A stretch of 64,000 nt of DNA from an uncultured Gammaproteobacteria bacterium (GCA_965230895.1 OZ246394.1:633316-697315); one strand, 5' to 3'; numbered from the stretch's first letter, positions 16,198 to 38,988 are shown. Notes: generated from the letters alone by a model not told the origin. Numbers and translations: made by a program.

Positions 16198-16243
16198 GAG
16201 CGGGCGATGGGAGTCGGACCCACTGCCTTATTCTTGGTAACAG
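16198..16243. repeat. Distal att-like direct repeat: a copy of the 3' half of tRNA-Gly(CCC). 32 nt are exact, then the match degenerates.
   Basis: The sequence is identical to 22480-22511 and 40997-41028, at 16198-16229. A tRNA-3'-end-like TGGAGCGGGC fragment and a GC hairpin precede it at 16168-16195. Confidence 0.7.
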
Positions 16244-16833: not shown

Positions 16834-16837
16834 AGTT

Positions 16838-22470: not shown

Positions 22471-22511
22471 TTGAGCGGGCGATGGGAGTCGGACCCACTG
22501 CCTTCTCCTTG
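22471..22511. repeat. att-like direct repeat, a 41-nt exact copy of the tRNA-Gly(CCC) 3' half, forming the junction of islands A and B.
   Basis: TTGAGCGGGCGATGGGAGTCGGACCCACTGCCTTCTCCTTG is identical to 40988-41028. Confidence 0.7.
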
Positions 22512-22634: not shown

Positions 22635-23450
22635 TTAATTCTTTGCCAAGAACTTTAACAATGCTTCATTAAAGACTTCTGGGGACTCAATATGAGAAAA
22701 ATGCGTTGCATGTGGTACTTCAAGCAAAGTGGAACCTTTTATTAACTTATGTGCTGTCTTTCCAATAAGTGGATTAGTTATAAAATCCTTTTCTCCAACA
22801 ACAATAAGCGTTTTAGCTTTGATCTTGCCAAATTTTTCTTTGAGACTTTCAAACGGTCGTGTATGAATATCCAGCATTCTTCGAGATCTTCGGGAATTCA
22901 GGATAATTCGGTTCTCATACGATTTAGGTTTGAAAATAGTCGTGTGAGACTTATAAAGGAAGTTTGGAAAAAGATATTTCCCGAATCTTACAACGACATG
23001 TTGATTAAACTCCGACTTAAGCGAAGAGAAAGGCAATCCTCCACTGCTATAGAGTACAAGTTTTTTGACAGGAAATTGTGCAGCATAAGCTGTAGCAATC
23101 CTTCCTCCGAAAGAATGTCCAATGATAATTGGATCTTTAACTCCTTTCTCAGCTGCAAATGCATGGACAAATTCAGCATACTCACTAAGATTCCAAACCT
23201 TTGGTGGTTCTTGGCTCAATCCAAAGCCAGGTAAATCAGGTGCAAGTACATGATATTTCTTTGATAGTCGCTCTGTGATATTGCTCCAGAATGCATGCGA
23301 TTGCCCCCACCCGTGAAGTAAGAGAATATAGTTGTTTCCCGCTCCAAGCTCTTCATAGAATACATCCATATCGGATACAACAATCTTTTTTAAGTTAGTT
23401 TGTTCTTTCATAAACTGTTCCTTCTCGATCTCCTTTCGGATAATCTTCAA
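22635..23450 (-). CDS. Alpha/beta-fold hydrolase.
   Basis: LLLHGWGQSHAFW ... IIIGHSFGG is the nucleophile elbow GHSFG. The protein is 271 aa. Confidence 0.7.
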   Translation of the reverse strand: MKIIRKEIEKEQFMKEQTNLKKIVVSDMDVFYEELGAGNNYILLLHGWGQSHAFWSNITERLSKKYHVLAPDLPGFGLSQEPPKVWNLSEYAEFVHAFAAEKGVKDPIIIGHSFGGRIATAYAAQFPVKKLVLYSSGGLPFSSLKSEFNQHVVVRFGKYLFPNFLYKSHTTIFKPKSYENRIILNSRRSRRMLDIHTRPFESLKEKFGKIKAKTLIVVGEKDFITNPLIGKTAHKLIKGSTLLEVPHATHFSHIESPEVFNEALLKFLAKN

Positions 23451-23464
23451 AACAAATAAAGCTA

Positions 23465-24034
23465 CTAAGTAGATTGAAGAGTTTTAATTATTTTGTCCAC
23501 TGCTTCCACAGGAGAAAGAGCTGTTGTGTCTATTATTAGTTGTTCGTCGAAATCTATTTTGCTCAATGATTCAGGATATTGTTCTACCCATTGATTAAAT
23601 CTTTTTACTGTATTAATCTTATTCATTTCCTTGCGCGAATCACTTTCAATCCGTTTCTCTATAGTTTCTTCAGACGCTGTGAGATGCACGACGAGCACTC
23701 TCCCTCCAGCATTAGTAACAACATGCACAAGTTGTCTATAGAAGGCTTCATTGTCGCGCATAATGACACCAGTTGCTATGAGGTTTATATTAGCACTAAC
23801 TGCTTCTTCGATTATCCTTAAACGGAATTCTTTTTCTAGTTTCTTGCGTATTGGATGATCAAAACCGAAGACCTCGCTCAGAGCATTAAGAATTATGTGA
23901 TTATGAAGAAATGTAAAGCCTGTTGTCTTAGCTAATTCTTTAGCTACAGTATATTTGCCCGTTCCTGGAGCTCCATAAAAGAGAATAAACTTCATATTAG
24001 TAATAATATTAGTGTCATTTAAACTGGAAATCAA
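23465..24034 (-). CDS. P-loop kinase (AAA_33 / zeta-toxin / chloramphenicol-phosphotransferase-like).
   Basis: It has Walker A ILFYGAPGTGKYTVAKEL and is 189 aa. It overlaps the downstream P450-like gene by 20 nt. Confidence 0.55.
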   Translation of the reverse strand: MISSLNDTNIITNMKFILFYGAPGTGKYTVAKELAKTTGFTFLHNHIILNALSEVFGFDHPIRKKLEKEFRLRIIEEAVSANINLIATGVIMRDNEAFYRQLVHVVTNAGGRVLVVHLTASEETIEKRIESDSRKEMNKINTVKRFNQWVEQYPESLSKIDFDEQLIIDTTALSPVEAVDKIIKTLQST

Positions 24035-25289
24035 ATTCTTGATCAGGTCTTACAAGTGTAAACTTCAGTTTTGGTTTGGGATCATTTGCACACGAAATAT
24101 CTTCTGTACTTGCGAGCACTGCAGGGACATATTCTCTATGTATAGCTTGCGTCAAATGTTTTCCAAAGCATCTTCGTAATCCTGGACTGAATTGTAAATC
24201 ATATGTTCCTTTTTGGCTTGTGGTAGCATCCTCCTGGTCTGGCAAAGTAAATAATGGTACAGCAAGAAGTGAACCAACTGGCATTACTCCTGTTGAAATT
24301 TCTAATGGCGCGGTTGTCCTGCGCAAAATAAAAGTCGATGTAGGGTGCGTCTCAGCAGATGACTCAAGAAATTGTCTACATAACACTGGAAAGTCATCAG
24401 TACCCAAAGACTCCCTTAATCCCGCTTGTGTTTCTTTATCTTTTGCGAGGTTATATGTAATCCATTCAAGTGAAGTTGCGAGCTCACCTTGTCCCGTAAT
24501 AGTTCCTCGGAAAGTTTCCATAACCTGATCTTGTGCTTGTGTACGTAATACCTGCGTTAAAACTCCTTCAGTTCCTTGGTTAACCGCTCTTGTTAGTACA
24601 TGGTCTAAAGTATCTGTATATGGAGTAAGTCTTTTTTCTGCATACCGTCTAACTGGACCAATTCTTCCTGTCTTTAATACCAATAATGGACTCGTTACAT
24701 AGTAACTATTGAAGCTGTCAATAATCTGATCTGCCTCTTCTACTGGAAGTTGTTGACCAAGATATGTTCCTAATATTGCTCTTGCAGCAAATCTCCTGAA
24801 TAATCTTGAAGAAGGGACATCCTCTTTTATTAACTCCTCAGTTAAACTTTCGGTTGCTGATCCTACTGCTTCTCCAACTATCTCTTCATGTTTCTTTAAA
24901 TTTCTGGGCGAAACTGAAGGTGACAATTCTGTTCGTGCGACTTTCCATTCTTGCAAATTTTCGTTATCCTGTATAACCCCTCCCTGAGTTGCTATAAGAA
25001 ATCTTTTTTCTCCTGTAGGCATAGTAACGTCCTCAAAATCTCTCATCAATACTTGCCTAGCTAAACTCCTTGATGTGACTAGATAGGATTGACGAAATCC
25101 CGGTACAGAAATAGGCAATCGCATTAAATCAGCTTGTGTTCCTACTTGTTGAACCATATTCCTCCATGGTTCAAGGTACAAGGATCTCGGAAACTGTGGA
25201 TTTGTACGATTAAGACTTAAAATACTGCCTGTAATCTCAGCGACACTTGGTGTATATGCTTCTGGTAATCTTTCTCTTTCTGTAGCCAT
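24015..25289 (-). CDS. Cytochrome P450-like heme-thiolate protein.
   Basis: Near the C-terminus, FSPGLRRCFGKHL matches the P450 Cys-ligand motif FxxGxRxCxG. There is an I-helix-like GQGELATSLEW. The 424-aa size is typical. The ExxR motif is not clean. Confidence 0.45.
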   Translation of the reverse strand: MATERERLPEAYTPSVAEITGSILSLNRTNPQFPRSLYLEPWRNMVQQVGTQADLMRLPISVPGFRQSYLVTSRSLARQVLMRDFEDVTMPTGEKRFLIATQGGVIQDNENLQEWKVARTELSPSVSPRNLKKHEEIVGEAVGSATESLTEELIKEDVPSSRLFRRFAARAILGTYLGQQLPVEEADQIIDSFNSYYVTSPLLVLKTGRIGPVRRYAEKRLTPYTDTLDHVLTRAVNQGTEGVLTQVLRTQAQDQVMETFRGTITGQGELATSLEWITYNLAKDKETQAGLRESLGTDDFPVLCRQFLESSAETHPTSTFILRRTTAPLEISTGVMPVGSLLAVPLFTLPDQEDATTSQKGTYDLQFSPGLRRCFGKHLTQAIHREYVPAVLASTEDISCANDPKPKLKFTLVRPDQEFDFQFK

Positions 25290-25363
25290 AAATGAAACAG
25301 AATTATACCATAGGATATAGTAAGAGTTGCTTTATCTCAAAGAATTTTTTATAATCTCGATTC

Positions 25364-26521
25364 ATGGAAAGACCTCAATTAAGAAAAGACATTCCTCTAT
25401 CAGAGCGGGGGTTCGCACGTGGATCTGAAATTGCCCTTTTAAACGATGTTCAATATAAAGATCAACTTAGACTTCTTATTCCCCAAGCAAAAAAAAGAGT
25501 TTGGATACAAACAATGACCTTTGATGGAAAAGGTAATTTCCCAGAATTCCAAGCTTTATTTGGTGAGACAGCAGAAAGAGGCATTGATACAAGGTTCACA
25601 GTAGATGCTTTTCATAGGATGCATGTCGCTGATTCGCTTTATTACCAGCCTCATTTATCACGAAGAAGGAGGCAAGAAGTGCGGGATTCTAAAACTGGCA
25701 AAAAGGATGCATTAGCTGAACTTGAAGAAAGCGGGGTTCAAGTTATTGAAACAAATCCTCCAAGAGGTATTATGGAGAAACTTAATCCTGCACGAGGAAG
25801 GAATCACAGAAAAATGGCGGTTATCGACGATGTTGTCTTTGTCGGAGATCAGCATCATTTCGTAGAACATAGTCAGCCCGGTACAATGACTCGTGTGACA
25901 GATCCAATACTTGTGGAGGGCCTTGCGGATATTTATGAATCAGCTGGGAAAGGGCCTGGTGGAGAGGATTACGAATTAGTTGGTTCTGATGGCACCACAC
26001 TTCTTGTAGATGCTGGTGTTCCAGGAAGATCTCTAATTATGGATCACGCAAAAGCAGCGATAGAAGGTGCACAGCAAAGTGTGGTAATGACCAATCAACA
26101 TACTTCTGATGGAGAACTTGTCGTAGCAATGCAAGCGGCGCAGGATAATGGTGCTTCGGGAAAAATGATTGTTGGTGATCCGAACTTGCTAGATTTTCCT
26201 TTGTCATGGATGTTTGATACAAAAAGCCAGTTACAATCAAAAAAAGCAGGTATAACAATTCCTACATACGAGAATCCTGTATGGATACATTCAAATTTAC
26301 TTTTGGTAGATGAAGACCTTCCTTCAGCACAGGTCTTTATGGGTACAAGATGTTATTCGGATATGATTACTAATTGGGGTTCTCAAGAAGTCGCATTACA
26401 ATCCAGAAATCCTGAATTCATTGGGCAGGTAGGGGCACATTTGCGTAGATTAGAGGATGAGTCAAAAGTACGAAAGCCAGACCGAACAGTAAGAGAAATT
26501 GTGTTTAGCAGAGGCTCCTAA
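25364..26521 (+). CDS. Phospholipase D-like (HKD) domain protein.
   Basis: NHRKMAVIDD matches HxKxxxxD. A second degenerate motif is HSNLLLVD. The protein is 385 aa. Confidence 0.45.
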   Translation: MERPQLRKDIPLSERGFARGSEIALLNDVQYKDQLRLLIPQAKKRVWIQTMTFDGKGNFPEFQALFGETAERGIDTRFTVDAFHRMHVADSLYYQPHLSRRRRQEVRDSKTGKKDALAELEESGVQVIETNPPRGIMEKLNPARGRNHRKMAVIDDVVFVGDQHHFVEHSQPGTMTRVTDPILVEGLADIYESAGKGPGGEDYELVGSDGTTLLVDAGVPGRSLIMDHAKAAIEGAQQSVVMTNQHTSDGELVVAMQAAQDNGASGKMIVGDPNLLDFPLSWMFDTKSQLQSKKAGITIPTYENPVWIHSNLLLVDEDLPSAQVFMGTRCYSDMITNWGSQEVALQSRNPEFIGQVGAHLRRLEDESKVRKPDRTVREIVFSRGS

Positions 26522-26548
26522 CCAATATTTTAATGCTATAATTATCAG

Positions 26549-27340
26549 ATGAGTAAAACAAATCAACTAAAAATAAGCTCCTCAATTACAGATTTTGCAC
26601 CGCTATTTTTCGATTTAGAATACATGTTCAAAGGTTTAAAAAATGCAGGCGTCGATGGTGTAGAACTTGTAATCGGTTTGAAATCACGTTGGACTGTAGA
26701 TAGAGTAAAACACCTCTCGAAGAAATATAGTTTACCCGTTACAAGCATTCATCAGCCAGTTTGGGGTGGATTAGGACTATCTTTTGATGAAGGTTTTTTT
26801 GACATAGCCAAACAATTAGGTGCAAAGAAAGTTGTTTGTCATCCTATTCCCAGATATTCGCTCCAAGAAAAACCCATGCAAGAATATCTTAAAAGACTTT
26901 CTCATATAAAGAAGAATAAAGGGATAGATATCCTTGTAGAAAATCTCTCTCCAAACTATGATAATAAGCTTGTGGATCCCTTCTTCCCTTTAGGTAAAGA
27001 TACTGGAAACATGCAAGAACTGTATTTAGCAGCTAGAGCACACAATCTTGATGTCACACTAGACATAGACCATCTTGCAAAAACAAAGCCACACAAGGAA
27101 AAATGGCTAAAGGAAATGATTCCTCATATTGGCAATGTGCATTTAAGTAGTTTTACACCAGTAGAACATCATATGCCTTTATACATGGGAGATTTCAAAG
27201 CAAAAGAATTTGTACAATATCTGCAGAAAATGAACTATAAAGGATTATTGACGTTTGAAATATACTATCCTACTTTTCTCAAACCTTTTGGATATGATTT
27301 TGACGCAATCAAAAAATCTGTCCAAGTCTTGAAAGGTTAG
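26549..27340 (+). CDS. Xylose-isomerase-like TIM-barrel protein (sugar-phosphate isomerase/epimerase family).
   Basis: It is 263 aa. There is a weak pattern match (VCHPIP, ENLSPNY, DIDHLA...HLSSF metal-ligand-like His/Asp/Glu spacing). Confidence 0.35.
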   Translation: MSKTNQLKISSSITDFAPLFFDLEYMFKGLKNAGVDGVELVIGLKSRWTVDRVKHLSKKYSLPVTSIHQPVWGGLGLSFDEGFFDIAKQLGAKKVVCHPIPRYSLQEKPMQEYLKRLSHIKKNKGIDILVENLSPNYDNKLVDPFFPLGKDTGNMQELYLAARAHNLDVTLDIDHLAKTKPHKEKWLKEMIPHIGNVHLSSFTPVEHHMPLYMGDFKAKEFVQYLQKMNYKGLLTFEIYYPTFLKPFGYDFDAIKKSVQVLKG

Positions 27341-27395
27341 ATTTTTGTATTGCTATATCTGCTCCTTTTTATTAGAATGATCTTTATAAAAGAAT

Positions 27396-28655
27396 ATGTT
27401 TAATGTTGCCAAATTCCGACAACAATTCCCAGCATTGCGTACTGATAAACCTCCTATATTTCTTGATGCTGTCGGAGGAACTCAAGTTCCACAAACAGTA
27501 GTTGATGCTGTTACCGACCATCTTATTACTAAGAATGGTAACAAGGGTGGTGTCTTCCCTACAAGTGTAAAAACAGACGAGATGATGGAAGAAACTCGAA
27601 AGATAGTGGCAGAGTTTATAAATGCTCCTGATTCAGACGAAATCATATTTGGTCCAAACTTCACTACTTTGACATTTAGTATGAGTCGTTCATTAGCCAA
27701 GACTTGGAAACAAGGAGATGAAATTATCTTAACTCGCTTGGATCACGATGCTAATGTTTCTCCATGGGTACTTGCAGCCGAAGATGCAGGTGTTACAGTT
27801 CGCTACATAGATATTGACGATAGCACTTGCCAATTGGATTTAGAGGGATATAAAAATATACTCTCAGAGAAAACTAAGCTTGTTGCTTTTTGCGCAGCTT
27901 CAAGTTCTGTTGGAACTCGAACTGATGTAAAAACTATTGCGAGAATGGCTCATGAAGTTGGCGCGCTTGTTTATGTTGATGCCGTTGCATATGCACCACA
28001 TGATTCGATTGATGTACAAGAATGGGAAGCTGACTTTGTAGGATGTTCAGGTTATAAATTCTTTGGACCCCATGTTGGATTTTTATGGGGCAAGCGAAAA
28101 TACCTTGAAACGCTTCCTGCGTATAAGATACGGCCTGCACCTAATAAAATTCCAGGAAAATGGATGAATGGAGCACAAGCGTTTGAAATAGTTACTGGTG
28201 CAAAAGCATCTATTGAGTATCTTGCTCAGGTAGGGAAAGAAAATCCATCTTACCAAAAAGCATATCCGGATTTTACTGGTAGACAATTAGATATTCATGC
28301 TGGTATGGCTGCAATTGCAGATTATGAATCTACATTAACATGGAAATTTATTAATGAAATTAAGAAGCGTCCACAGTTTACTCTTTGGGGAATTGATGAT
28401 GAAAAAGATAAAATGCAACGCGTTCCAACTATAGCTGTGTCATTAGGGAATGAACCTTCAGATAAAATTGCAAAATACCTTGCTGAAAATAATATTTACA
28501 TTTGGAGTAGAAGTGTATATTCAATCTCTCTGTCAGAACGACTTGGACTAGAACAAACGGGCGGATTTATCCGAGTTGGATTTGTTCATTACAATACACC
28601 TGAGGAAATCGATACTTTACTTGAAGCTTTGGACAATTACAAAATCTCTGAATAA
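27396..28655 (+). CDS. Class V aminotransferase (cysteine desulfurase / selenocysteine-lyase-like PLP enzyme).
   Basis: LDHDANVSPW ... DFVGCSGYKFFGPHVGFLWGKRKYL has the SGYK PLP-lysine context. The protein is 419 aa. Confidence 0.7.
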   Translation: MFNVAKFRQQFPALRTDKPPIFLDAVGGTQVPQTVVDAVTDHLITKNGNKGGVFPTSVKTDEMMEETRKIVAEFINAPDSDEIIFGPNFTTLTFSMSRSLAKTWKQGDEIILTRLDHDANVSPWVLAAEDAGVTVRYIDIDDSTCQLDLEGYKNILSEKTKLVAFCAASSSVGTRTDVKTIARMAHEVGALVYVDAVAYAPHDSIDVQEWEADFVGCSGYKFFGPHVGFLWGKRKYLETLPAYKIRPAPNKIPGKWMNGAQAFEIVTGAKASIEYLAQVGKENPSYQKAYPDFTGRQLDIHAGMAAIADYESTLTWKFINEIKKRPQFTLWGIDDEKDKMQRVPTIAVSLGNEPSDKIAKYLAENNIYIWSRSVYSISLSERLGLEQTGGFIRVGFVHYNTPEEIDTLLEALDNYKISE

Positions 28656-28660
28656 CTAAA

Positions 28661-29305
28661 TTATAAACTTTGGATCAACTCAATATTTACATCCTTCAAT
28701 GAAGAAACAAGTTTTGTTGCAGGATAATCCTTACTCGTATCCTCCACTAATCCGATAGAATGCATATGTGCTGCTGCTGCACCAATCATGCCACTCCTGC
28801 CGTCTTCAATAACGATAGCTTCTTCTGGCATCACTCCTAATTTTTTAGCAGCGAAAAGAAAAATGTCCGGCGCAGGCTTACCATGTTCTACATCATATGT
28901 TGAAACAATAGCATCAAAGTATTTTCTAATTGCGAGTTCATCCACAACTTCATCAATAAAAGCTTTCGTTGATGCGGATGCTATTGCGAGTCTGAATCCG
29001 TTTGCATGTAACTCATGAATCAATGCAATAGCGTGTGGAATGGCTGTGAGTTTACCTTTTGAAACTTGACGCATAAATTCCCATTTCTTTTTAAGAAGCG
29101 CTGGAATTGAACCAACCGCTACTCCATGCTTGTCAAAAATCTCTGCAAACATTTTTTCATCTGTAACCCCGGCATAAGTATTAGAAATTTCTCTTGGAGC
29201 CATTTCAATTCCATACTCTTTCAGAAGCATACTCTCTATCTCACCATGGAACCCCTGAGTATCAGATACAACCCCATCCATATCAAAAATCACAGCTTTT
29301 ATCAT
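28661..29305 (-). CDS. HAD-superfamily hydrolase (beta-phosphoglucomutase-like subfamily IA).
   Basis: MIKAVIFDMDGVVSDT is motif I DxDG. A later ...SASTKAF and a C-terminal EDGRSGMIGA ED motif follow. Confidence 0.75.
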   Translation of the reverse strand: MIKAVIFDMDGVVSDTQGFHGEIESMLLKEYGIEMAPREISNTYAGVTDEKMFAEIFDKHGVAVGSIPALLKKKWEFMRQVSKGKLTAIPHAIALIHELHANGFRLAIASASTKAFIDEVVDELAIRKYFDAIVSTYDVEHGKPAPDIFLFAAKKLGVMPEEAIVIEDGRSGMIGAAAAHMHSIGLVEDTSKDYPATKLVSSLKDVNIELIQSL

Positions 29306-29329: not shown

Positions 29330-29857
29330 CTAAAGGGATGCGACAGAAGTACTTTGGTTTATATTTATAGATTGAGATATAAGTTGTGATATATGATTCT
29401 GTTGATATGTTTGTGCAACTGCAACATGAAGCATTGGGATCTCTGCATCTTTGAATACATTATCCACTAAAATGTCTCTGAGAGATCTGCTGTTCTCGTT
29501 ATGACTTCCCCCATCCAGTTCAACAATAAGCAGTGGCGCAAATGTTGCTTTATTGCAGATGACAAAGTCCACATGTTTTTGGGAGATTTGATTGAACTTC
29601 GGCCAAAATTCTTTATCCGTCCTATCAATCGCCATCTCAACCAAATCAGCAATCCTGACCTTAGGACATACATACATGTCTGGTGTCACAGAATGCTCAA
29701 GAACATCAAAGAATCTCTTCTCCCCATCACTTAGTAAGTACGGCCCTTTCTTCTTATATACCCTCCTCCATTTCTTTTGGGAACGGAAGTAAATGAATGC
29801 GCTAAGCACAAGTAGTATTAATATAGAGCCTGCGATATACAGAATATTATTCTCCAT
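29330..29857 (-). CDS. DUF2726-like membrane-anchored protein (paralog of 16312-16833).
   Basis: It has the same architecture and is about 70% identical (KKWRRVYK.KG..LL.DGEKRFFDVL...HVDFVIC...LLIVELDGGSHNE). Confidence 0.6.
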   Translation of the reverse strand: MENNILYIAGSILILLVLSAFIYFRSQKKWRRVYKKKGPYLLSDGEKRFFDVLEHSVTPDMYVCPKVRIADLVEMAIDRTDKEFWPKFNQISQKHVDFVICNKATFAPLLIVELDGGSHNENSRSLRDILVDNVFKDAEIPMLHVAVAQTYQQNHISQLISQSININQSTSVASL

Positions 29858-29926
29858 GAAGTAATTGTATACCAGTGAAATGCGAATGAATACTTTAAAA
29901 TTTATTCTGGGAATGAAAGAGGCACT

Positions 29927-30055
29927 TTATTTAACTGCTGCATCAATCGCTTTATTAACTATAATAGTTAAAGTTCTAATGACTTCCTCAACTTCAGAAT
30001 CAGATAACCGTTCTCCACGTTTGCCTAGTTTTTTTCTTGCTTGTTCTACAGTCAT
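29927..30055 (-). CDS. Small ORF (43 aa, MTVEQARKKLGKRGERLSDSEVEEVIRTLTIIVNKAIDAAVK) that is not in the supplied ORF track.
   Basis: It is an uninterrupted reading frame. The recurrent 11-mer at 30099-30109 lies about 45 nt upstream in the same orientation. There is no homology support. Confidence 0.25.
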   Translation of the reverse strand: MTVEQARKKLGKRGERLSDSEVEEVIRTLTIIVNKAIDAAVK

Positions 30056-30098
30056 TTTAAGAAGCTTTCATTAGTAACATCAGTACATTCTATCAAGA

Positions 30099-30109
30099 AT
30101 CCGTAGAAA
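30099..30109 (-). repeat. Copy 2 (reverse orientation) of the recurrent 11-mer TTTCTACGGAT.
   Basis: It is an exact match to the copies at 22448 and 34925. Confidence 0.5.
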
Positions 30110-30127
30110 TCATGAGTGATATTATGA

Positions 30128-31387
30128 TTACACCCAGCGTGATCTGTCATAGAAGTGTTCAATTATATGTTTACGTAGTGATTCTGAATTGAAGTTTTTG
30201 AACCCCAAGTCCCAACAAATTGTAGAAGAAAGAGCTACAAAAAAATTTAATAACTCATCCTTATCTAGCAAGACTCGAGTATCCGTATTAATTTCCCAAT
30301 AGTATCGAGATAGCAGTATATCTACACTACCATGATAGCCGCCATCTTCCCCAGGAAATAGTGTTACACCTTGAGCTCCACTTAATTCGACTTTACCTTT
30401 TACTACACCTTGATATTCATACCGCTTGTAAAAGTTGTGTGCTGCCTGAAATATTACGAAAATCTTGCCAAGAACATAATGCATATTCATCTGCTCTCTA
30501 TTGTCATTACCTATGTTCTTTAATGTTGATATATAAAAAAGTAACCCTTGAGCATAAATTTGTTCGTTAGTAAAAGTATTTCCATTGCGATCATAATTAA
30601 ATGTTGTTATTCCTTCGGGAATTGCTTTGTGTTCTGTATGTGGAAAGTCTGTATAAGTATGACCTGTACTTCGATATTCAATTATTTCTTCTGACAAATT
30701 ACTAGGGAGTACCAATTGATTATGGGGATAATGAGGTATTATCGAAACTGACAGTAATCTTTTTGGTGTTGAGAAGTGTTCACGATACACATATTCATTA
30801 CCCGCGCGAGTTGTTGCAATACTTATTTGTTTATTTGCAAGATATAAACAAGCATCTAATACATCTTTTGCTCTTGCATAATAATATTCTCTTTTTTCAT
30901 TGGATTGTTCAGTTTTCTTATAAAGTAGATTTGCATAATCTGGTGAAGCAATATCTATAAGTTCTTTACTTATATTATTTGTCCTTATCCAAACTGTTCC
31001 ATTATTGTGTATATAATATGGCGTTTCGTCTCCCTCAAATATACGTATTAGAATGAATCTTTTTCCGTCTTTCTCATTTGTTGGATGTATCTTGTATTTA
31101 GGAAGAGAATCAACACTATTAGCCCATTGTGTTATTCTTTCAATATCTTGAGCATTTGTATTTATTCCTTTGTATTCAATTGGCAATCCTGTTTTTTTAT
31201 CTTCTTTAACCCCTATTATTATGACTCCCCCACGAGTATTGGAAAAAGCTGCAAAATGTTTCGACAAGCTTCCGGTAGTTAAATCTTCTTTATAATCAAG
31301 TTGGACACCTTCAGGTTCATTTGTTTTACAAAAAGCCACTACATCTTCAAATGTAAATGAGGTTATTGGTTGAGTGAGTAATTTCAT
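30128..31387 (-). CDS. AlbA_2 (Schlafen-like, divergent-AAA) domain protein with a 300-aa uncharacterized C-terminal region.
   Basis: The N-terminus FEDVVAFCKTNEPEGVQLDYKEDL...LSKHFAAFSNTRGGVIIIGVKED fits the AlbA_2 consensus (E..lefK...l.k.i.AFaNt.GG.l.iGV.d). Confidence 0.5.
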   Translation of the reverse strand: MKLLTQPITSFTFEDVVAFCKTNEPEGVQLDYKEDLTTGSLSKHFAAFSNTRGGVIIIGVKEDKKTGLPIEYKGINTNAQDIERITQWANSVDSLPKYKIHPTNEKDGKRFILIRIFEGDETPYYIHNNGTVWIRTNNISKELIDIASPDYANLLYKKTEQSNEKREYYYARAKDVLDACLYLANKQISIATTRAGNEYVYREHFSTPKRLLSVSIIPHYPHNQLVLPSNLSEEIIEYRSTGHTYTDFPHTEHKAIPEGITTFNYDRNGNTFTNEQIYAQGLLFYISTLKNIGNDNREQMNMHYVLGKIFVIFQAAHNFYKRYEYQGVVKGKVELSGAQGVTLFPGEDGGYHGSVDILLSRYYWEINTDTRVLLDKDELLNFFVALSSTICWDLGFKNFNSESLRKHIIEHFYDRSRWV

Positions 31388-31442
31388 TCCAAATGCATTA
31401 TATAGAATTTAGTTGCTACTGCTGTAAGAAAGTAGAAAATTG

Positions 31443-32213
31443 TTATAAATCTTCGGGCGTAATATCTCTTATCTCTATTTGCATTCCGTATGGCTTAATT
31501 AGATCATTTATAAGTTTCGTAGTCGCTTTTGCATCTTTCACAAACAAATCCATATCAATTTGTGCTTCTTTGATCCCAACCATTAACTTTTCATCAATCA
31601 TTTTTTTCATAAATGCTACTGTTGCGTTAGGTGGTGGTGTTTCGAGCATATGGTAAAACTTAGCAACTGTACTTAATCTTTCTAGCATTGAATCCTGTTT
31701 TTGATATGTGGTTCTGATACTCGTTACTAATTGCTGGTTATTATCTGGGAGGTTAGCAATCATTCCTGATGTAACAATATTTTGATGCCACTTATCTGAG
31801 ATACGAGCCTTCATCTCTTCAGCGACTGCTGCCCACATTCCACCATCTGCATACTTCTTACTCCATTCATCAGGAGGAATAGGCATTTCTTCGAGAGTTT
31901 TTTTATTTACCTCGAGAATCATCTGGATCTTAATTACATTATCTAGTATTTCGTTTCCAACATATTGAGCAACTGCCAGCGCGGATCTTTTATCCTGACT
32001 CAGTTGCCTCTTTCTATCTGCTTCTCTTGACGCAAATAATGGAAGCGTTATTGTAATAAGACCAATTAATAGACCAGCAAGCGATTCAAAGACAAAAGTT
32101 GCAGTGAACTGAATATCTAAAGACGATCCATAAAATCTCACGACGAATAGCAGAGTAAAATATGCTGTTATTAACAACATCGGCAGGTGTTTATATTCAA
32201 ACAATCTCAACAT
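31443..32213 (-). CDS. Hypothetical membrane protein (two N-terminal TM helices plus a cytoplasmic domain).
   Basis: The protein is 256 aa and has no recognizable motifs. Confidence 0.35.
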   Translation of the reverse strand: MLRLFEYKHLPMLLITAYFTLLFVVRFYGSSLDIQFTATFVFESLAGLLIGLITITLPLFASREADRKRQLSQDKRSALAVAQYVGNEILDNVIKIQMILEVNKKTLEEMPIPPDEWSKKYADGGMWAAVAEEMKARISDKWHQNIVTSGMIANLPDNNQQLVTSIRTTYQKQDSMLERLSTVAKFYHMLETPPPNATVAFMKKMIDEKLMVGIKEAQIDMDLFVKDAKATTKLINDLIKPYGMQIEIRDITPEDL

Positions 32214-32320
32214 TAGAGGAGATTTTAGCAGAAGCTCTAACCTATTGCTACATGCGATTTAATAACTTGTATTCTTTGGTCTGGACAGAATTAATTCTGT
32301 CCAGTGTCGAAAAAGACAAA

Positions 32321-32956
32321 TTACTCATTTCCTAAATCAACAACAACTCTCTGATTACTCCAAAAACTTGGTTGAAAGATCAAAGTTGCTTTATCTCCAG
32401 TTGCGACTTCAAAAGGTATTGATCCCGTTACCTTTCCTCCACCTGCTAAAGTTCCAGATTTTAGTTGGTCTTCAATTGAAGTTATTGTGTAACTTTCTTG
32501 AGCACCGTTTGCATCCTGAACTTTAAAATCAAATGGATTATAAGTTATCTCGTCACTACCAAGATTTTTGATAGTTACATTGACGATGACATATTCCTTC
32601 CCCGCCGTGGGAGTGTTATATCCAAAAGCACCAGATCTTCGGACTGAATTAACAATAAATTCTCTTTCGCCTAGTTTAGTTACATCACCAACTTTTGGCG
32701 TTGCATCCTTCTGATCCTCATCTTGAATACCAGAGTTTGCCTGTGTGGTGCTATTTGTTGCACCTGATGTTGAATTATTACTCGTATTGCCACCAAAGGC
32801 TGAAATAACACTTCCAAGCAAAATAAGCCCCAATGTAACACTTAAGATTGGATGTCTCTTAATCCACCCTCTCTGATCTGCGCGACAATGTCGGCACTTC
32901 GATGCCTTTGCATCAATTTCTGTTTGACATGATTTACACTTTTTTATACAAATCAC
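32321..32956 (-). CDS. Zinc-ribbon / TM / DUF4352-like extracytoplasmic domain protein.
   Basis: It has an N-terminal CKSCQTEIDAKASKCRHC zinc ribbon, one TM helix, a Ser/Thr-rich linker, and a beta-rich C-terminal domain (NPFDFKVQD...GG.V.GSIPFEV). Confidence 0.45.
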   Translation of the reverse strand: MICIKKCKSCQTEIDAKASKCRHCRADQRGWIKRHPILSVTLGLILLGSVISAFGGNTSNNSTSGATNSTTQANSGIQDEDQKDATPKVGDVTKLGEREFIVNSVRRSGAFGYNTPTAGKEYVIVNVTIKNLGSDEITYNPFDFKVQDANGAQESYTITSIEDQLKSGTLAGGGKVTGSIPFEVATGDKATLIFQPSFWSNQRVVVDLGNE

Positions 32957-33046
32957 CCCCTCTGGCCATAAACCCTAACAAATAGTTAGAGAATATCTAC
33001 GCCTAATTGTACCACAAACTCAAACAAATAGTTTGTATCGCAGATC

Positions 33047-33286
33047 GTGCTTCATTTCGATAATAGAGACATGAGAAGGTACTCACGTATTCCAAAAAGT
33101 CTTGGAAAAAGAATGCAGAAGTTTAGAAAGGATAAAAACATATCTCAAGTCAAAATGGCAGAGTTGATTGGTGTTAGTCCGACATATGTTGGATTTATTG
33201 AACAAGGCGTAAGAAATCCGTCATTAGCAACTTTAGACAAAATTGCGAGAGTACTAGGAGTAAAAATGTCAGAAATACTTGATTAA
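33047..33286 (+). CDS. XRE-family HTH transcriptional regulator.
   Basis: LRKDKNISQVKMAELIGVSPTYVGFIEQGVRNPSLATLDKIARVLGV. Confidence 0.75.
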   Translation: MLHFDNRDMRRYSRIPKSLGKRMQKFRKDKNISQVKMAELIGVSPTYVGFIEQGVRNPSLATLDKIARVLGVKMSEILD

Positions 33287-33404
33287 TTGCTCCACTTGCT
33301 ACTGCTTTTCAAAGTTATAATATAAACGAACGTATTTTTTATAGCTTTAATTAATCAAAAGTCATTGTATAAATTATAATAAATGTTATAATTTAAGTGC
33401 AATA

Positions 33405-34043
33405 ATGACGTTATCATCTAACTCTGCACTATCTGCCCCTAAAACAACCGCATATCTCCGAGTATCTACCATCGATCAGGATCTGGAGAAAAACAAAGCA
33501 GACATTCTAAAGCTTGCAAACACGCTTGAGTTAGGACATGTGCAGTTTATCGAAGAGAAAGTGTCCGGGAAAGTATCTTGGAAAAAACGAAAAGTAAAAG
33601 ACGTAATTGATAATGCTAAAAAAGATGACAATATTATTGTTTCTGAACTGTCGAGATTAGGGAGAAGCATGCTTGAGTGCATGGAAATACTTTCGATTGC
33701 TGCAGAAAAAGGAATTAATGTTTATGCCGTAAAGGGGAACTGGCGTTTAGATAGCAGTATCCAAAGTAAAATCATTGCAATGGCATTTGCCATGGCCGCC
33801 GAAATAGAGCGTGATTTAATCTCAAAACGTACTATGGAAGCTTTACGAGCAAAAAAGCTGTCTGGCGCGAAACTGGGGCGTCCTAAAGGCATTGGGAAAA
33901 GCAAGTTGGATCAGTTTAAACCTGAAATTGAAGGATTACTAGCAAATGGTTCCTCCCAAAAATTTATCGCAAGAAGATATGGAACAACGGAAGCAAATTT
34001 ATCATTATGGATCAAGAAGCATAAAATCACAAAACAAGATTAG
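33405..34043 (+). CDS. Serine recombinase (resolvase/invertase family).
   Basis: The N-terminal catalytic domain has TAYLRVSTIDQD with the nucleophile Ser. The C-terminal HTH is GSSQKFIARRYGTTEANLSLWIKKH. The protein is 212 aa. Confidence 0.75.
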   Translation: MTLSSNSALSAPKTTAYLRVSTIDQDLEKNKADILKLANTLELGHVQFIEEKVSGKVSWKKRKVKDVIDNAKKDDNIIVSELSRLGRSMLECMEILSIAAEKGINVYAVKGNWRLDSSIQSKIIAMAFAMAAEIERDLISKRTMEALRAKKLSGAKLGRPKGIGKSKLDQFKPEIEGLLANGSSQKFIARRYGTTEANLSLWIKKHKITKQD

Positions 34044-34079
34044 CCTTCTTCTATCTCTATTATATGATATATTCGAGAT

Positions 34080-34262
34080 ATGAGAGGGAGACCAATTGGT
34101 TCACAAAAACGTTTTAATATCACCTACCAGTCAATGGCGGATGCAACAGGCCTAAGTATCAATTCCTTCATCAAATACGCTAGTTTAAAAAAGTTTGATC
34201 CAAATGATTTGATAAGCATTGTAAAATTTGTTTCAGAATACCGTAAAAGAAAGAATACGTGA
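34080..34262 (+). CDS. Small hypothetical protein (60 aa).
   Basis: It is only an ORF, downstream of the recombinase. Confidence 0.25.
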   Translation: MRGRPIGSQKRFNITYQSMADATGLSINSFIKYASLKKFDPNDLISIVKFVSEYRKRKNT

Positions 34263-34263
34263 G

Positions 34264-34857
34264 TTATTGCAACAATTGTGAGGAAATAAGTATCTTTTGT
34301 CTTTCAGCCTCTAAGTATTCTTCAGGAACAAATAAAGGAATGCCGATTCTACGACCTTTATTGTCAAACGATTTTTTGCGAGGATAGCCTAGTTTTTTAT
34401 CATGTGCTCTATGGCATTCATAACATCTTCCTATGTAGTCCTCCAAAGCATATAAATACATTCCACTTTGATTAGACCAACCTAATCTATTTCCATCAGT
34501 ACTTCCACAGTCTACGCAGCGTTTTGCTTTGCCTTTGTGATAGTTTACATAATGGTGCAATGCATTATATGAAGCCATAATGCCTTTGTAGTTGTGATTA
34601 TTTTCACCCGAGTTCTTAATATAGACATCCATACTCCATGCAGTGTCCTTACCTCTCTTTTGATAAAGTTTGCTACAATCTGGATGAAAGTTGCCATATT
34701 TTTTGATTTTGCTAGGACGAACGTATAGTTCTTGTTGGCACTCTCCACAGAGAATATATTTCCCAGTCTTTTTCCTACCCCCTTTGGAGGCACCTTTAAT
34801 CCCTTTATTCCATGGAACTCGGCCAACATTGATTTTGTGCCCTTTTTCAAATCTCAT
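34264..34857 (-). CDS. Cys/His-rich zinc-finger protein, possibly an HNH-type homing endonuclease.
   Basis: It has multiple CxxC and H..H clusters (CGECQQE...HPDC; HHYVNYHKGKAKRCVDCGS...CYECHRAHD). The protein is 197 aa. Confidence 0.4.
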   Translation of the reverse strand: MRFEKGHKINVGRVPWNKGIKGASKGGRKKTGKYILCGECQQELYVRPSKIKKYGNFHPDCSKLYQKRGKDTAWSMDVYIKNSGENNHNYKGIMASYNALHHYVNYHKGKAKRCVDCGSTDGNRLGWSNQSGMYLYALEDYIGRCYECHRAHDKKLGYPRKKSFDNKGRRIGIPLFVPEEYLEAERQKILISSQLLQ

Positions 34858-34924
34858 GGTGTTATTGTAATAGGCGTTTGATTATCTGTCGATATGGTAT
34901 AGTAATCTCATAGTATATTAGGGT

Positions 34925-34935
34925 TTCTACGGATT
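34925..34935 (+). repeat. Copy 3 of the recurrent 11-mer TTTCTACGGAT.
   Basis: It is an exact match. It lies between the capsid-fragment stop and the HNH gene start. Confidence 0.5.
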
Positions 34936-35364: not shown

Positions 35365-35410
35365 TTCTATAATGAACTGAACGAGGTTGATGTTAGTACA
35401 ATGGAAGAGT

Positions 35411-36142: not shown

Positions 36143-36190
36143 GCCTGCTACAGATCAACATAGTCTAATCAAATCTGATAAAATATATTA

Positions 36191-37689: not shown

Positions 37690-37757
37690 CTTGCTCTGTA
37701 CTATATTTTATGGTACAGTGATATTGTTTGTTTTATCCTATCGAACATGAATAAACA

Positions 37758-38258: not shown

Positions 38259-38259
38259 T

Positions 38260-38982: not shown

Positions 38983-38988
38983 ATAACT

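What the first reader, a model, noticed from the sequence alone, without database searches (positions are those of the whole stretch)
22635..29305. Island-encoded enzyme cluster containing a cytochrome P450-like protein, a P-loop small-molecule kinase, PLD-like, TIM-barrel, class V aminotransferase, HAD and alpha/beta-hydrolase proteins
Seven consecutive genes encode tailoring-type enzymes. The 424-aa protein ends with FSPGLRRCFGKHL, a precise match to the P450 heme-thiolate loop FxxGxRxCxG. It also has an I-helix-like GxGELAT. P450s are essentially unknown in streamlined, largely anaerobic CPR-type genomes and require O2 and redox partners, none of which are obvious here.

Together with an AAA_33-type kinase (a family that includes antibiotic phosphotransferases) and a PLP enzyme, this looks like a horizontally acquired xenobiotic or antibiotic modification module, or a natural-product tailoring module. 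Such a module could detoxify host-derived (for example actinobacterial) metabolites.
Basis: partly seen in the sequence, partly recalled or inferred. Interest (0 to 1): 0.55.

Follow-up and report, generated by a model that had tools for sequence, protein, structure and literature searches.

The report
Mobile enzyme island with odd P450
A tiny-genome "candidate phyla radiation" bacterium carries, on a mobile DNA island inserted into a tRNA gene, a conserved set of small-molecule enzymes. They are led by a very rare and highly unusual member of the cytochrome P450 family, an enzyme type not expected in such organisms; its chemistry is still unknown.

Summary
Seven enzyme genes lie at 22635-29305, each with the predicted fold.

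The 424-aa protein is a true but extreme cytochrome P450 homolog:
- Profile-profile probability to canonical P450s is 99.9%, and a confident model matches only P450 structures.
- The heme-Cys loop, the C-helix WxxxR and the beta1-4 Arg are conserved.
- Its clade has only 8 known members. It has lost the ExxR arginine, the PERF segment and the I-helix acid-alcohol pair.
- It is nevertheless under strong purifying selection (dN/dS 0.08).

"Island-encoded" is correct. The 3' 39 nt of tRNA-Gly (40990-41028) recur exactly at 22473-22511. An integrase sits next to the tRNA. A sister genome has the same six-gene block between its own tRNA-Gly and att repeat.

The host is Levybacteria-like CPR: its AtpD is 91% identical to a Levybacteria MAG protein.

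The function is unproven. Nothing supports a specific antibiotic-resistance role. My best inference is a mobile pathway in which the P450 oxidises an amino-acid-like substrate. A kinase, an Fgm3-like PLP enzyme, a HAD phosphatase, a PLD-type enzyme and a TIM-barrel phosphoesterase then process the product.

Rating: a new variant of a known kind, of moderate to good interest.

The parts
24015..25289 (-). A divergent cytochrome P450 homolog of 424 aa, belonging to a new and very rare family. The Cys ligand is C374 in FSPGLRRCFG. W115/R119 (C-helix) and R323 are conserved. It has no ExxR Arg, no PERF and no I-helix acid-alcohol pair.
23465..23995 (-). A P-loop small-molecule kinase (AAA_33/KTI12/shikimate-kinase-like). 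It starts 19 nt after the P450 stop codon. The longest ORF begins at TTG 24034, but ATG 23995 is the more likely start.
22635..23411 (-). An alpha/beta-hydrolase (esterase/lipase-like). It is present in this genome only and absent from the sister island. The longest ORF begins at TTG 23450.
25364..26521 (+). A soluble PLD-superfamily protein. The first HKD motif is canonical (NHRKMAVIDD). The second reads IHSNLLLVDE (HxN). It is transcribed divergently from the P450 gene across a 74-bp spacer.
26549..27340 (+). An AP_endonuc_2 (xylose-isomerase-like) TIM barrel. Its best named model is the CbiR phosphodiesterase, below threshold (49 bits against 105).
27396..28655 (+). A class V fold PLP enzyme of the TIGR01976 (VC1184) 'cysteine desulfurase-like' family. 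It lacks the desulfurase catalytic Cys. Its closest solved relative is the retro-aldolase Fgm3.
28661..29305 (-). A HAD-IA phosphatase or mutase of the beta-phosphoglucomutase/YqaB type (139 bits against a cutoff of 153).
22473..22511 (+). The distal att repeat, an exact copy of the 3'-terminal 39 nt of tRNA-Gly. It marks the end of the island that holds the cluster.
40990..41062 (-). tRNA-Gly(CCC), the integration target and proximal island boundary.
39875..40927 (-). The tyrosine integrase of the island (PF00589, 47.6 bits), adjacent to the tRNA. Its N-terminus survives as a fusion remnant in the sister island.
29330..39735 (.). The defence and mobile cargo of the same island: DUF2726, Schlafen/AlbA_2, DUF4352, a serine resolvase, a capsid fragment, Mrr, a LexA-like protein, and a Pycsar set (PycTM plus two PycC cyclases). 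This segment is deleted in the sister genome.
16198..16236 (+). A second, partly degraded copy of the tRNA-Gly 3' end (32 nt exact). It marks an older tandem island at 16237-22472.

Best explanation
Shown:
- The cluster is the metabolic cargo of an 18.5-kb genomic island (22512-40989) in a Levybacteria-like CPR genome. The island is integrated into the 3' end of tRNA-Gly and has an integrase next to the tRNA.
- A core of six genes is inherited as a unit under strong purifying selection: HAD; PLP enzyme, TIM barrel and PLD in one operon; P450 and kinase in the divergent operon.
- The 424-aa protein is a genuine cytochrome P450 superfamily member of a new and extremely rare family. It keeps every residue class that holds the heme: the Cys loop, the C-helix W/R and the beta1-4 Arg. 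It has lost the Glu-Arg-Arg structural triad and the I-helix O2-activation pair.

Inferred (the mechanism I commit to):
- It is a working heme-thiolate enzyme that oxidises, most likely hydroxylates, a small polar, amino-acid-like metabolite. It may use a peroxide-driven or otherwise atypical route that does not rely on the classical proton-relay machinery.
- The translationally adjacent P-loop kinase phosphorylates the product.
- The Fgm3-like PLP enzyme cleaves or rearranges the hydroxy- or phospho-amino compound.
- The HAD phosphatase, the PLD-type phosphotransferase and the CbiR-like TIM-barrel phosphoesterase make, move or trim the phosphoester or phosphodiester.
- The end product would be a specialised phosphorylated metabolite that benefits the carrier of the island, not a housekeeping compound.
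For: P450 identity:
- hhalign of the family against an alignment of canonical P450s only gives 99.87% probability, E 1.4e-31, over 362 columns.
- The family profile hits CYP11A1 at 8e-7 and CYP24A1 at 2.7e-6 in the PDB.
- Intermediate relatives score 48-174 bits to PF00067.
- The AF2 model has pLDDT 78.7 and pTM 0.84. Foldseek returns 1541 PDB matches; all 50 rows listed are P450s, with TM-scores up to 0.75.
- C374, F367, G370, W115 and R323 are invariant out to canonical P450s.

Functional, not decaying: dN/dS is 0.083 for the P450 and 0.05-0.09 for the four partner genes where dS could be estimated. For the kinase dS was saturated and no ratio was obtained.

Island:
- The exact 39-nt tRNA-Gly 3' repeat has 0 matches expected by chance.
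- An integrase lies next to the tRNA.
- The sister genome L001 has tRNA-Gly, an integrase remnant, the same six genes and an att repeat within 6.6 kb.
- Its 108-aa ORF is an integrase/Schlafen deletion fusion.

Lineage.

Pathway logic:
- The P450 and kinase genes are 19 nt apart.
- The PLP enzyme's closest solved relative, Fgm3 (197 bits), is a retro-aldolase on gamma-hydroxy-arginine (10.1101/2023.03.21.533663). Its cluster also encodes a P450 (PMC6389888).
- Bacterial relatives of the PLP enzyme sit 3 nt after 2OG-Fe dioxygenase genes, or beside cupin, aldehyde dehydrogenase, M20 hydrolase and amino-acid transporter genes.
- The kinase's best NCBIfam model is a shikimate-kinase-fold homoserine kinase.
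- In every informative context of the P450 family a phosphoesterase-type gene is nearby: a CbiR-like TIM barrel in the window, L001, L005 and L006, and Exo_endo_phos in L006 and L011.
Against: - No substrate is identified. All partner assignments are at superfamily level or below model cutoffs.
- The PLP enzyme is not linked to the P450 family outside the window/L001 clade. Other clades pair the P450 with Ppm-like/Ldh_2/methyltransferase/GT1 genes (L005, L013) or with a PlsC acyltransferase and EEP (L011). The family may therefore act on different substrates in different clusters.
- Fgm3's proposed catalytic Tyr (K-V-Y) is Phe here (K-F-F), read from the alignment.
- Heme binding is not demonstrated.
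- No ferredoxin or flavodoxin is encoded in the window, and CPR bacteria are generally thought to lack heme synthesis (my own knowledge).
- The structure model used an alignment that contained canonical P450s, so it is not fully independent evidence.
Confidence: 0.4

Rival explanations
1. Membrane-lipid or phospho-headgroup remodelling. The P450 acts on an acyl chain or headgroup of a scavenged (lyso)phospholipid or phosphonolipid. PLD, the alpha/beta-hydrolase, the TIM phosphodiesterase, the kinase and HAD exchange or trim headgroups.
For: - The PLD protein's best named models are cardiolipin synthases, though weakly.
- The hydrolase's top model is a lipase.
- In L011 the P450-like gene is followed 9 nt later by a PlsC-type acyltransferase (PF01553, 58 bits), with an EEP phosphoesterase nearby.
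- L005 has a Ppm-like gene, which could serve phosphonolipid headgroup synthesis.
- CPR bacteria are thought to scavenge lipids (my own knowledge).
Against: - All lipid-enzyme matches are far below their cutoffs.
- By inspection of the translations, none of the cluster proteins has an obvious membrane-spanning N-terminus or signal peptide. No dedicated predictor was run.
- The PLP enzyme and the beta-PGM-type HAD have no obvious lipid role.
- The hydrolase is not part of the conserved core.
Confidence: 0.2
2. One reading: a horizontally acquired xenobiotic or antibiotic inactivation module, combining a phosphotransferase, an esterase and an oxidase.
For: - The location is mobile.
- The kinase is AAA_33-type.
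- The hydrolase has very weak hits to macrolide esterases: EstT at 24 bits against 450, and macro_16_ester at 21 bits.
Against: - No resistance-family model comes near its cutoff.
- The conserved core is a multi-step pathway with a PLP enzyme, a TIM barrel and PLD, which is atypical for detoxification.
- The esterase is not in the conserved core.
- The P450 lacks the residues used for classical O2-dependent xenobiotic oxidation.
- There are no relatives on plasmids.
Confidence: 0.12
3. Chemical anti-phage defence. The cluster makes or modifies a nucleotide-like or other small molecule that blocks phage replication, which would fit its place in a defence island.
For: - The cluster shares one island with Pycsar, Mrr, Schlafen/AlbA_2 and DUF2726 genes.
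- The kinase has a full-length weak match to PADLOC VakA (36.5 bits) and to a viperin-kinase fusion.
- HAD has weak nucleotidase-model hits.
Against: - The other six proteins match no defence-specific PADLOC model. The PLP enzyme does match DndA (107 bits) and SspA (103 bits), but these are generic hits to the cysteine-desulfurase fold.
- The sister genome kept the cluster while deleting the defence genes.
- The other P450-family contexts are not defence islands.
Confidence: 0.1
4. The P450-like protein is no longer a heme enzyme. It could be a structural or regulatory relic, or a heme- or ligand-binding protein, and the neighbouring genes may be only loosely related to it.
For: - The whole Glu-Arg-Arg triad and the I-helix pair have been lost.
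- The window protein alone falls 0.3 bits under the Pfam cutoff.
- No redox partner is encoded in the window.
Against: - dN/dS is 0.083.
- All heme-contact positions are invariant across 8 members that are only 37-79% identical to the window protein.
- There is a precedent for P450s without ExxR: CYP157, Rupasinghe 2006, cited in PMC3599690.
- Operon coupling is tight and conserved.
Confidence: 0.08

Closest known systems
CYP157 family P450s of Streptomyces (K-helix EQSLW/EVLW instead of ExxR)
   Same: Both are bona fide P450-superfamily proteins that lack the ExxR arginine while keeping the Cys-ligand loop. Both are genetically tied to a fixed set of neighbouring genes (PMC3599690, citing Rupasinghe et al. 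2006).
   Different: The window family also lacks the PERF/meander segment and the I-helix acid-alcohol pair. It is only about 15-20% identical to canonical P450s. It occurs in CPR bacteria on a mobile island, with different neighbours.
Fgm1 (P450 CYP625A1) and Fgm3 (PLP retro-aldolase) of the Fusarium graminearum fg3_54 cluster, and bacterial 2OG-Fe dioxygenase plus 'cysteine desulfurase-like' PLP gene pairs
   Same: The island's PLP enzyme is closest to Fgm3 among solved structures (197 bits) and belongs to the same TIGR01976-type family (444 bits). That family recurrently sits with an oxygenase (PMC6389888; 10.1101/2023.03.21.533663).
   Different: Here the oxygenase candidate is an aberrant P450 in a divergent operon. 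Fgm3's proposed catalytic Tyr is Phe here. The kinase, HAD, PLD and TIM partners have no counterpart in those systems.
Partner-independent P450s that lack the I-helix Thr (CYP152 peroxygenases, CYP74 allene oxide synthases, P450nor). This is recalled from my own knowledge and was not tested.
   Same: The conserved acid-alcohol pair is absent, and no redox partner is evident nearby.
   Different: No specific sequence relationship was found. The best structural and sequence matches are CYP11/CYP24/CYP3A/BM3-type and OxyA/CYP143. None of their family-specific residues were examined.
tRNA-integrated genomic islands carrying defence and metabolic cargo
   Same: The island has a tRNA-Gly target, an adjacent tyrosine integrase, an exact 39-nt direct repeat of the tRNA 3' end, tandem accretion and variable cargo.
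   Different: Base composition is native-like. The host is a CPR bacterium. The cargo combines Pycsar, Mrr and Schlafen genes with a P450 pathway.
PEP-mutase-based phosphonate gene clusters
   Same: A 58%-identical member of the P450 family heads an operon with a Ppm-like protein, an Ldh_2 dehydrogenase, a CbiR-like TIM barrel and a methyltransferase. The Ppm-like protein's best PDB hits are PEP mutases, at 1e-12.
   Different: The window cluster has no Ppm. The L005 protein scores 121 bits against a cutoff of 320, and its motif reads ENKxxxxxNS instead of EDKxxxxxNS.

Membership tests
Cytochrome P450 superfamily (PF00067) | Heme-thiolate Cys in the FxxGxRxCxG loop, aligned to the ligand Cys of true P450s | tested here: met
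   FSPGLRRCFG has C374, F367, G370 and G376 invariant across the family and out to canonical P450s.
Cytochrome P450 superfamily (PF00067) | Significant sequence homology to the family (Pfam gathering score, or profile-level significance) | tested here: met
   The window protein alone scores 22.5 bits against a cutoff of 22.8. Relatives P0007 and P0008 score above the cutoff at 39.7 and 25.7 bits, though without a significant individual domain for P0008. The family profile hits PDB P450s at 8e-7. hhalign against canonical P450s gives 99.87% probability, E 1.4e-31.
Cytochrome P450 superfamily (PF00067) | P450 fold | tested here: met
   The AF2 model has pLDDT 78.7 and pTM 0.84. Foldseek returns 1541 PDB matches; all 50 rows listed are P450s, with TM-scores up to 0.75. 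Caveat: the input alignment included canonical P450s. The model from close relatives only failed, with pLDDT 35.
Cytochrome P450 superfamily (PF00067) | K-helix ExxR. This is near-universal but not absolute, as CYP157 shows. | tested here: not met
   The canonical E and R positions read S...E in the window protein and vary within the clade. ETAR is found only in P0005 and DTAR in P0007. An invariant Glu (E309) lies one residue upstream.
Cytochrome P450 superfamily (PF00067) | Meander PERF/FxPxR motif | tested here: not met
   The segment is shortened by about 15-20 residues, and no Phe or Arg counterpart exists.
Cytochrome P450 superfamily (PF00067) | I-helix (A/G)Gx(D/E)T(T/S) oxygen-activation motif | tested here: not met
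   The region reads (T/A)GQ(G/S)xLATS. The Gly is kept, and the acid-alcohol pair is absent.
Cytochrome P450 superfamily (PF00067) | Heme binding with the 450-nm CO spectrum, and electron supply from a redox partner | not testable with these tools
   No ferredoxin, flavodoxin or rubredoxin candidate is found in the 64-kb window. The rest of the 1.6-Mb genome was not available.
tRNA-integrated genomic island | tRNA gene at one end, a direct repeat of its 3' end at the other, and an integrase next to the tRNA | tested here: met
   tRNA-Gly is at 40990-41062. An exact 39-nt repeat is at 22473-22511, with 0 matches expected by chance. The integrase is at 39875-40927. The sister genome has the same architecture.
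tRNA-integrated genomic island | Atypical base composition | tested here: not met
   GC is 0.381 for the cluster and 0.367 for the defence part, against 0.385 for the rest of the window.
tRNA-integrated genomic island | Variable cargo or location between related genomes | tested here: met
   L001 lacks 10.4 kb of defence cargo through a deletion fusion. It also lacks the hydrolase. Its island sits at a tRNA-Gly(GCC) with unrelated flanks.
   The kinase matches only generic P-loop kinase models. The hydrolase scores 24 bits to EstT (cutoff 450) and 21 bits to macro_16_ester (cutoff 420).
Cysteine desulfurase (SufS/CsdA/IscS) | Catalytic Cys loop and equivalog-level score | tested here: not met
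   SufS scores 214 bits against a cutoff of 475. The family that does pass is TIGR01976, at 444 bits against 352. The region that aligns to the SufS Cys loop reads WSRSVYSISLS, with no Cys (alignments; the SufS motif is from my own knowledge).
PhnW/PhnX 2-aminoethylphosphonate catabolism | Equivalog scores for the aminotransferase and the phosphonatase | tested here: not met
   PhnW-AepZ scores 21.5 bits against 360.8. Phosphonatase scores 50 bits against 220.
PLD superfamily | Two HxK(x)4D motifs | tested here: inconclusive
   PLDc_2 scores 43 bits over two stretches. The first motif, HRKMAVID, is canonical. The second, HSNLLLVD, has Asn in place of Lys (read from the sequence).
CbiR cobamide-remodelling phosphodiesterase | NF041277 equivalog cutoff | tested here: not met
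   The score is 49 bits against 105, covering only the C-terminal third. The TIM barrels in L005 and L006 score 36-37 bits.

The most novel reading that the evidence does not exclude
This clade of 8 members, and perhaps its next relatives (one of which is annotated in a DPANN Nanoarchaeota MAG), may be a lineage of heme-thiolate enzymes re-tooled to work without the classical O2/proton-relay machinery and without dedicated redox partners. It would spread on mobile islands among ultra-small symbiotic prokaryotes. Together with a kinase, a PLP enzyme and phosphoesterases, it would make a previously unknown phosphorylated small molecule used in host or phage interactions.
Probability: 0.15. Interest if true: 0.8.

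Novelty: new variant of a known kind. Interest (0 to 1): 0.55.

Why it matters
CPR (Patescibacteria) bacteria are regarded as metabolically minimal fermenters. A selectively maintained P450-type heme enzyme on a mobile island challenges that picture. It raises concrete questions about where the heme and the electrons or oxidant come from.

For P450 enzymology, the family is a natural experiment. Heme-contact residues are invariant, while the Glu-Arg-Arg triad, the PERF motif and the I-helix proton relay are all gone. This goes beyond the CYP157 precedent.

The conserved partners give a testable entry point to a new small-molecule pathway in an uncultivated lineage. These are the kinase, the Fgm3-like PLP enzyme, HAD, PLD and the CbiR-like TIM barrel.

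The clean att sites and the deletion variant in a sister genome also make this one of the clearer examples of an integrase-mediated tRNA island with mixed defence and metabolic cargo in CPR.

Tried and rejected
- A structure prediction from the six close homologs alone failed (pLDDT 35).
- The word-indexed protein searches returned very few relatives.
- The metagenome and species-genome scans each added only one locus. Viral contigs gave none.
- Plasmid tblastn found nothing for PLD or the TIM barrel, and only a 26%-identity half-length match for the P450.
- PDB sequence searches were uninformative for the kinase (P-loop only), PLD and the TIM barrel.
- The promoter and terminator scan was no better than shuffled sequence.
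- Literature searches for the sample accessions and for P450s in Patescibacteria found nothing relevant.
- The sister MAG's title 'Gammaproteobacteria' was rejected. ATPase alpha and UvrB are closest to the entries I recognise (from my own knowledge of the PDB codes) as Firmicutes, Fusobacteria and Thermotoga, with the E. coli and Acinetobacter entries ranking far lower. AtpD is 91% identical to a Levybacteria protein.
- I rejected cysteine desulfurase, PhnW/PhnX, CbiR and antibiotic-kinase assignments, because the model cutoffs or catalytic residues were not met.
- I looked for an internal att site that would split the defence part from the enzyme part and found none. The L001 fusion ORF instead indicates a single ancestral island.

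Full report
**Observation**

Pfam confirms each predicted fold: an alpha/beta-hydrolase, an AAA_33-type P-loop kinase, a marginal p450 hit (22.5 bits, cutoff 22.8), PLDc_2, an AP_endonuc_2 TIM barrel, a class V aminotransferase fold and HAD.

They form two tight, divergent transcription units:
- P450 > kinase > hydrolase on the minus strand.
- PLD > TIM > PLP enzyme on the plus strand.
- A convergent HAD gene follows.

Gene calls on identical contigs and the ortholog alignment suggest that the kinase starts at ATG 23995 and the hydrolase at ATG 23411. That leaves 19 nt between the P450 stop and the kinase start.

**Is it a P450?**

Yes, at superfamily level.

Single-sequence evidence is weak. 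Pfam is 0.3 bits under its cutoff. The best PDB hit is OxyA at E 0.017, with the Cys aligned.

Profile evidence is strong:
- A six-member family profile hits CYP11A1 (8e-7) and CYP24A1 (2.7e-6), with the I-helix, K-helix and Cys loop in register.
- An exhaustive HMM search of 1.84 billion representatives shows a graded series into ordinary P450s. Those score 48-174 bits to PF00067.
- hhalign of the family against an alignment made only of canonical P450s gives 99.87% probability, E 1.4e-31, over 362 columns.

Structure prediction from the six close homologs failed (pLDDT 35). A 16-sequence alignment gave pLDDT 78.7 and pTM 0.84. Foldseek then returned 1541 PDB matches; all 50 rows listed are P450s, with TM-scores up to 0.75. 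This is not fully independent evidence, because canonical P450s were in the alignment.

**What is unusual about it**

The family is extremely rare. There are 4 cluster representatives below 1e-30 and 8 distinct proteins in total. It occurs in one of 185,579 species-representative genomes, on one JGI metagenome contig and on no viral contigs.

A motif table across the family and a graded outgroup shows the following:
- Retained: the C-helix WxxxR (W115, R119), the beta1-4 Arg (R323) and the FSPGLRxCxG loop.
- I-helix: it reads (T/A)GQ(G/S)xLATS instead of (A/G)Gx(D/E)T(T/S).
- Canonical ExxR: it survives only as ETAR in P0005 and DTAR in P0007. It is lost in the other six members, including the window protein (S...E).
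- An invariant Glu lies one residue upstream of the canonical position.
- The meander is shortened by about 15-20 residues, and the FxPxR/PERF motif is gone.

Among the ten invariant columns of the canonical alignment, the four that form ExxR and FxPxR have no counterpart in the family. The heme-loop and Arg columns are kept.

Loss of ExxR has a precedent in CYP157 (Rupasinghe et al. 2006, as cited in PMC3599690 and PMC3990721). I found no precedent for the combined loss.

The gene is not decaying. The comparison with the 79%-identical ortholog gives dN/dS 0.083. Four of the five partner genes give 0.05-0.09; for the kinase dS was saturated and no ratio could be computed.

**Island**

- The tRNA-Gly(CCC) gene lies at 40990-41062.
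- Its 3'-terminal 39 nt recur exactly at 22473-22511. A 32-nt exact copy with a degraded tail recurs at 16198-16236. Shuffled sequence gives no such matches.
- A tyrosine integrase (39875-40927) abuts the tRNA.
- The proximal island (22512-40989, about 18.5 kb) therefore contains the enzyme cluster plus a defence and mobile segment. That segment holds DUF2726, Schlafen/AlbA_2, DUF4352, a serine resolvase, a capsid fragment, Mrr, a LexA-like protein, and a Pycsar set with PycTM (121 bits) and two PycC cyclases (251 and 218 bits).
- An older tandem island (16237-22472) carries a second DUF2726 gene, a TPR protein and a 1107-aa malectin/CarboxypepD_reg surface protein.

In the sister genome (L001) a tRNA-Gly(GCC) is followed by a 108-aa ORF, the same six genes (66-90% identical) and a copy of the tRNA 3' end 91 nt after the kinase. 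The whole island is 6.6 kb.

The 108-aa ORF is a fusion. Its residues 1-89 match the integrase N-terminus. Its residues 91-108 match the last 18 residues of the window's Schlafen gene. L001 therefore descends from the composite island by a deletion of about 10.4 kb that spared the enzyme block.

The flanks outside the att sites are unrelated in the two genomes within the sequence available. GC content is native-like. 'Horizontally acquired' is thus supported by the architecture but not by composition.

**Lineage**

The sister MAG is titled 'uncultured Gammaproteobacteria', but this is contradicted by three lines of evidence:
- Gene content: MurT, PolX-PHP, GatA and type IV pilus PilB/PilC in the window, and LytR_C, VanW and an Rpf-like transglycosylase in L001.
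- Marker similarity: ATPase alpha and UvrB are closest to entries I recognise as Firmicutes, Fusobacteria and Thermotoga, with the E. coli entries far lower (organism identities of the PDB codes are from my own knowledge).
- AtpD is 91% identical (424/465) to MBA3723784.1 from a Candidatus Levybacteria MAG. The sister genome's ortholog is in the same 90% cluster.

Levyibacteriota belong to Patescibacteria/Microgenomates. The actinobacterial-host idea, borrowed from Saccharibacteria, is not warranted.

**Function of the partners**

- PLP enzyme: it passes the TIGR01976 (VC1184) 'cysteine desulfurase-like' model at 444 bits against 352. It has no Cys at the desulfurase loop. Its closest solved relative is Fgm3 (197 bits), and UstD is also among the hits. 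Fgm3 is described as a PLP retro-aldolase on gamma-hydroxy-L-arginine (10.1101/2023.03.21.533663), and its cluster encodes the P450 Fgm1 (PMC6389888).
- Contexts of the PLP family: of six bacterial contexts sampled from about 40%-identical relatives, two have a 2OG-Fe dioxygenase gene ending 3 nt upstream. One has a cupin with an aldehyde dehydrogenase, an M20 hydrolase and an amino-acid ABC transporter. One has M20 and an aldehyde dehydrogenase. Two have nothing informative. The family therefore tends to work downstream of an oxygenase on amino-acid-like substrates. Fgm3's proposed catalytic Tyr is Phe here, so the chemistry may differ.
- Kinase: it matches only generic P-loop small-molecule kinases. 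Its best NCBIfam model is a shikimate-kinase-fold homoserine kinase. It also has a weak full-length hit to PADLOC VakA.
- HAD: it is of the beta-PGM/YqaB type, just under the cutoff.
- TIM barrel: its best named model is the CbiR phosphodiesterase, below threshold. The same is true of the TIM barrels next to the P450-like genes in L005 and L006, which are only 22-27% identical to the window's.
- PLD: it has one canonical HKD motif and one HxN motif, and no relatives in the PDB or on plasmids.

**Other contexts of the P450 family**

- L005/L013: a GT1 glycosyltransferase lies upstream. The operon then runs P450-like, a conserved 306-aa unknown, Ldh_2, a Ppm-like protein, a TIM barrel and a methyltransferase. 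The Ppm-like protein's best PDB hits are PEP mutases, but it scores 121 bits against a cutoff of 320 and its motif reads ENKxxxxxNS.
- L006: P450-like, a TIM barrel and a convergent Exo_endo_phos gene.
- L011: P450-like, a PlsC-type acyltransferase 9 nt downstream and a convergent Exo_endo_phos gene.

The common denominator is a phosphoesterase-type neighbour. Everything else varies, as expected for a tailoring oxidase recruited into different small-molecule pathways.

**Mechanism**

Shown: a mobile island, a conserved six-gene unit under purifying selection, P450 homology with the heme-contact residues intact, and no redox partner in the window.

Inferred: the protein binds heme through C374 and oxidises a small polar, amino-acid-like substrate. 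The adjacent kinase phosphorylates the product. The Fgm3-like PLP enzyme then cleaves or rearranges it. HAD, PLD and the TIM barrel handle the phosphoester or phosphodiester steps. The missing proton-relay pair and ERR triad suggest peroxide-driven or otherwise non-classical catalysis. I put about 0.4 on this overall reading, and less on any single step.

Rivals:

| Reading | Confidence |
|---|---|
| Phospholipid or headgroup remodelling | 0.2 |
| Chemical anti-phage defence | 0.1 |
| A non-catalytic relic | 0.08 |

**Novelty and verdict**

The island type, the P450 superfamily and all partner folds are known kinds. Three things are new:
- a P450 family with this combination of losses;
- its presence and maintenance in a CPR genome;
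- its fixed association with this enzyme set on an integrase-mobilised island.

I rate it a new variant of a known kind, with interest 0.55. It is clearly real and unusual, and it comes with sharp, feasible experiments. Its function is unresolved, and the evidence comes from two genomes and a handful of short contigs.

Noticed in passing
window 37758-39735: A Pycsar-type anti-phage system in a CPR genome. The PycTM effector scores 121 bits in PADLOC. It is followed by two tandem PycC cyclases, at 251 and 218 bits.
   Followed up: partly
window 16198-22472: An older tandem island at the same tRNA-Gly site, bounded by a degraded att copy (32 nt exact). It carries DUF2726, a 595-aa TPR protein and a 1107-aa secreted protein with four CarboxypepD_reg repeats and two malectin domains. 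It has no integrase.
   Followed up: partly
L001 5462-5788, compared with window 40616-40882 and 30131-30184: The 108-aa ORF of the sister genome is a deletion fusion of the integrase N-terminus (residues 1-89) and the Schlafen/AlbA_2 C-terminus (residues 91-108). It records the loss of about 10.4 kb of defence cargo while the enzyme cluster was kept.
   Followed up: yes
L001/L009 (GCA_964507055.1, CAZDOJ010000001.1): The public title of the sister MAG says 'uncultured Gammaproteobacteria'. Its AtpD falls in the same 90% cluster as a Candidatus Levybacteria protein, and its gene content is monoderm/CPR-like. The label looks wrong.
   Followed up: yes
window 40990-41062 compared with L001 5243-5315: The island sits at tRNA-Gly(CCC) in the window and at tRNA-Gly(GCC) in the sister genome. 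The two tRNAs are 67/73 identical, and the chromosomal flanks are unrelated. This suggests either integration into two different isoacceptor genes or rearrangement.
   Followed up: partly
L005 2014-7646 and L013: A 58%-identical P450-like gene heads a putative phosphonate-type operon: a conserved 306-aa unknown, Ldh_2, a Ppm-like protein with ENKxxxxxNS in place of EDKxxxxxNS, a CbiR-like TIM barrel and a methyltransferase. In L013 a GT1 glycosyltransferase lies upstream.
   Followed up: partly
P0011 and the P0010-P0015 tier: The nearest outgroup clade of more ordinary P450s shares a C-terminal extension, and most of its members (five of six) have ExxR and FxPxR. It includes a protein that NCBI names as a cytochrome P450 from a Nanoarchaeota (DPANN) MAG, which is another ultra-small symbiont lineage.
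   Followed up: no
L017 4294-6230 and L021 3348-5233: TIGR01976-type 'cysteine desulfurase-like' PLP genes in Gloeothece and Salinivibrio are each preceded, 3 nt upstream, by a '2OG-Fe dioxygenase family protein' gene. This looks like a conserved but uncharacterised oxygenase/PLP pair.
   Followed up: partly
window 16312-16833 and 29330-29857: There are two DUF2726 genes, one in each tandem island. The second lies directly between the enzyme cluster and the defence segment and is absent from the sister island.
   Followed up: no
window 34927-35364 and 33405-34043: A truncated phage major-capsid fragment (145 aa, matching positions 102-245 of the 280-position Pfam model) and a serine resolvase lie inside the island. 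They hint at a degraded prophage or satellite origin for part of the cargo.
   Followed up: no
window 42239-44089 and 45617-46903: A PolX-PHP DNA polymerase and a MurT-type Mur ligase (peptidoglycan amidation) are encoded in this CPR genome.
   Followed up: no
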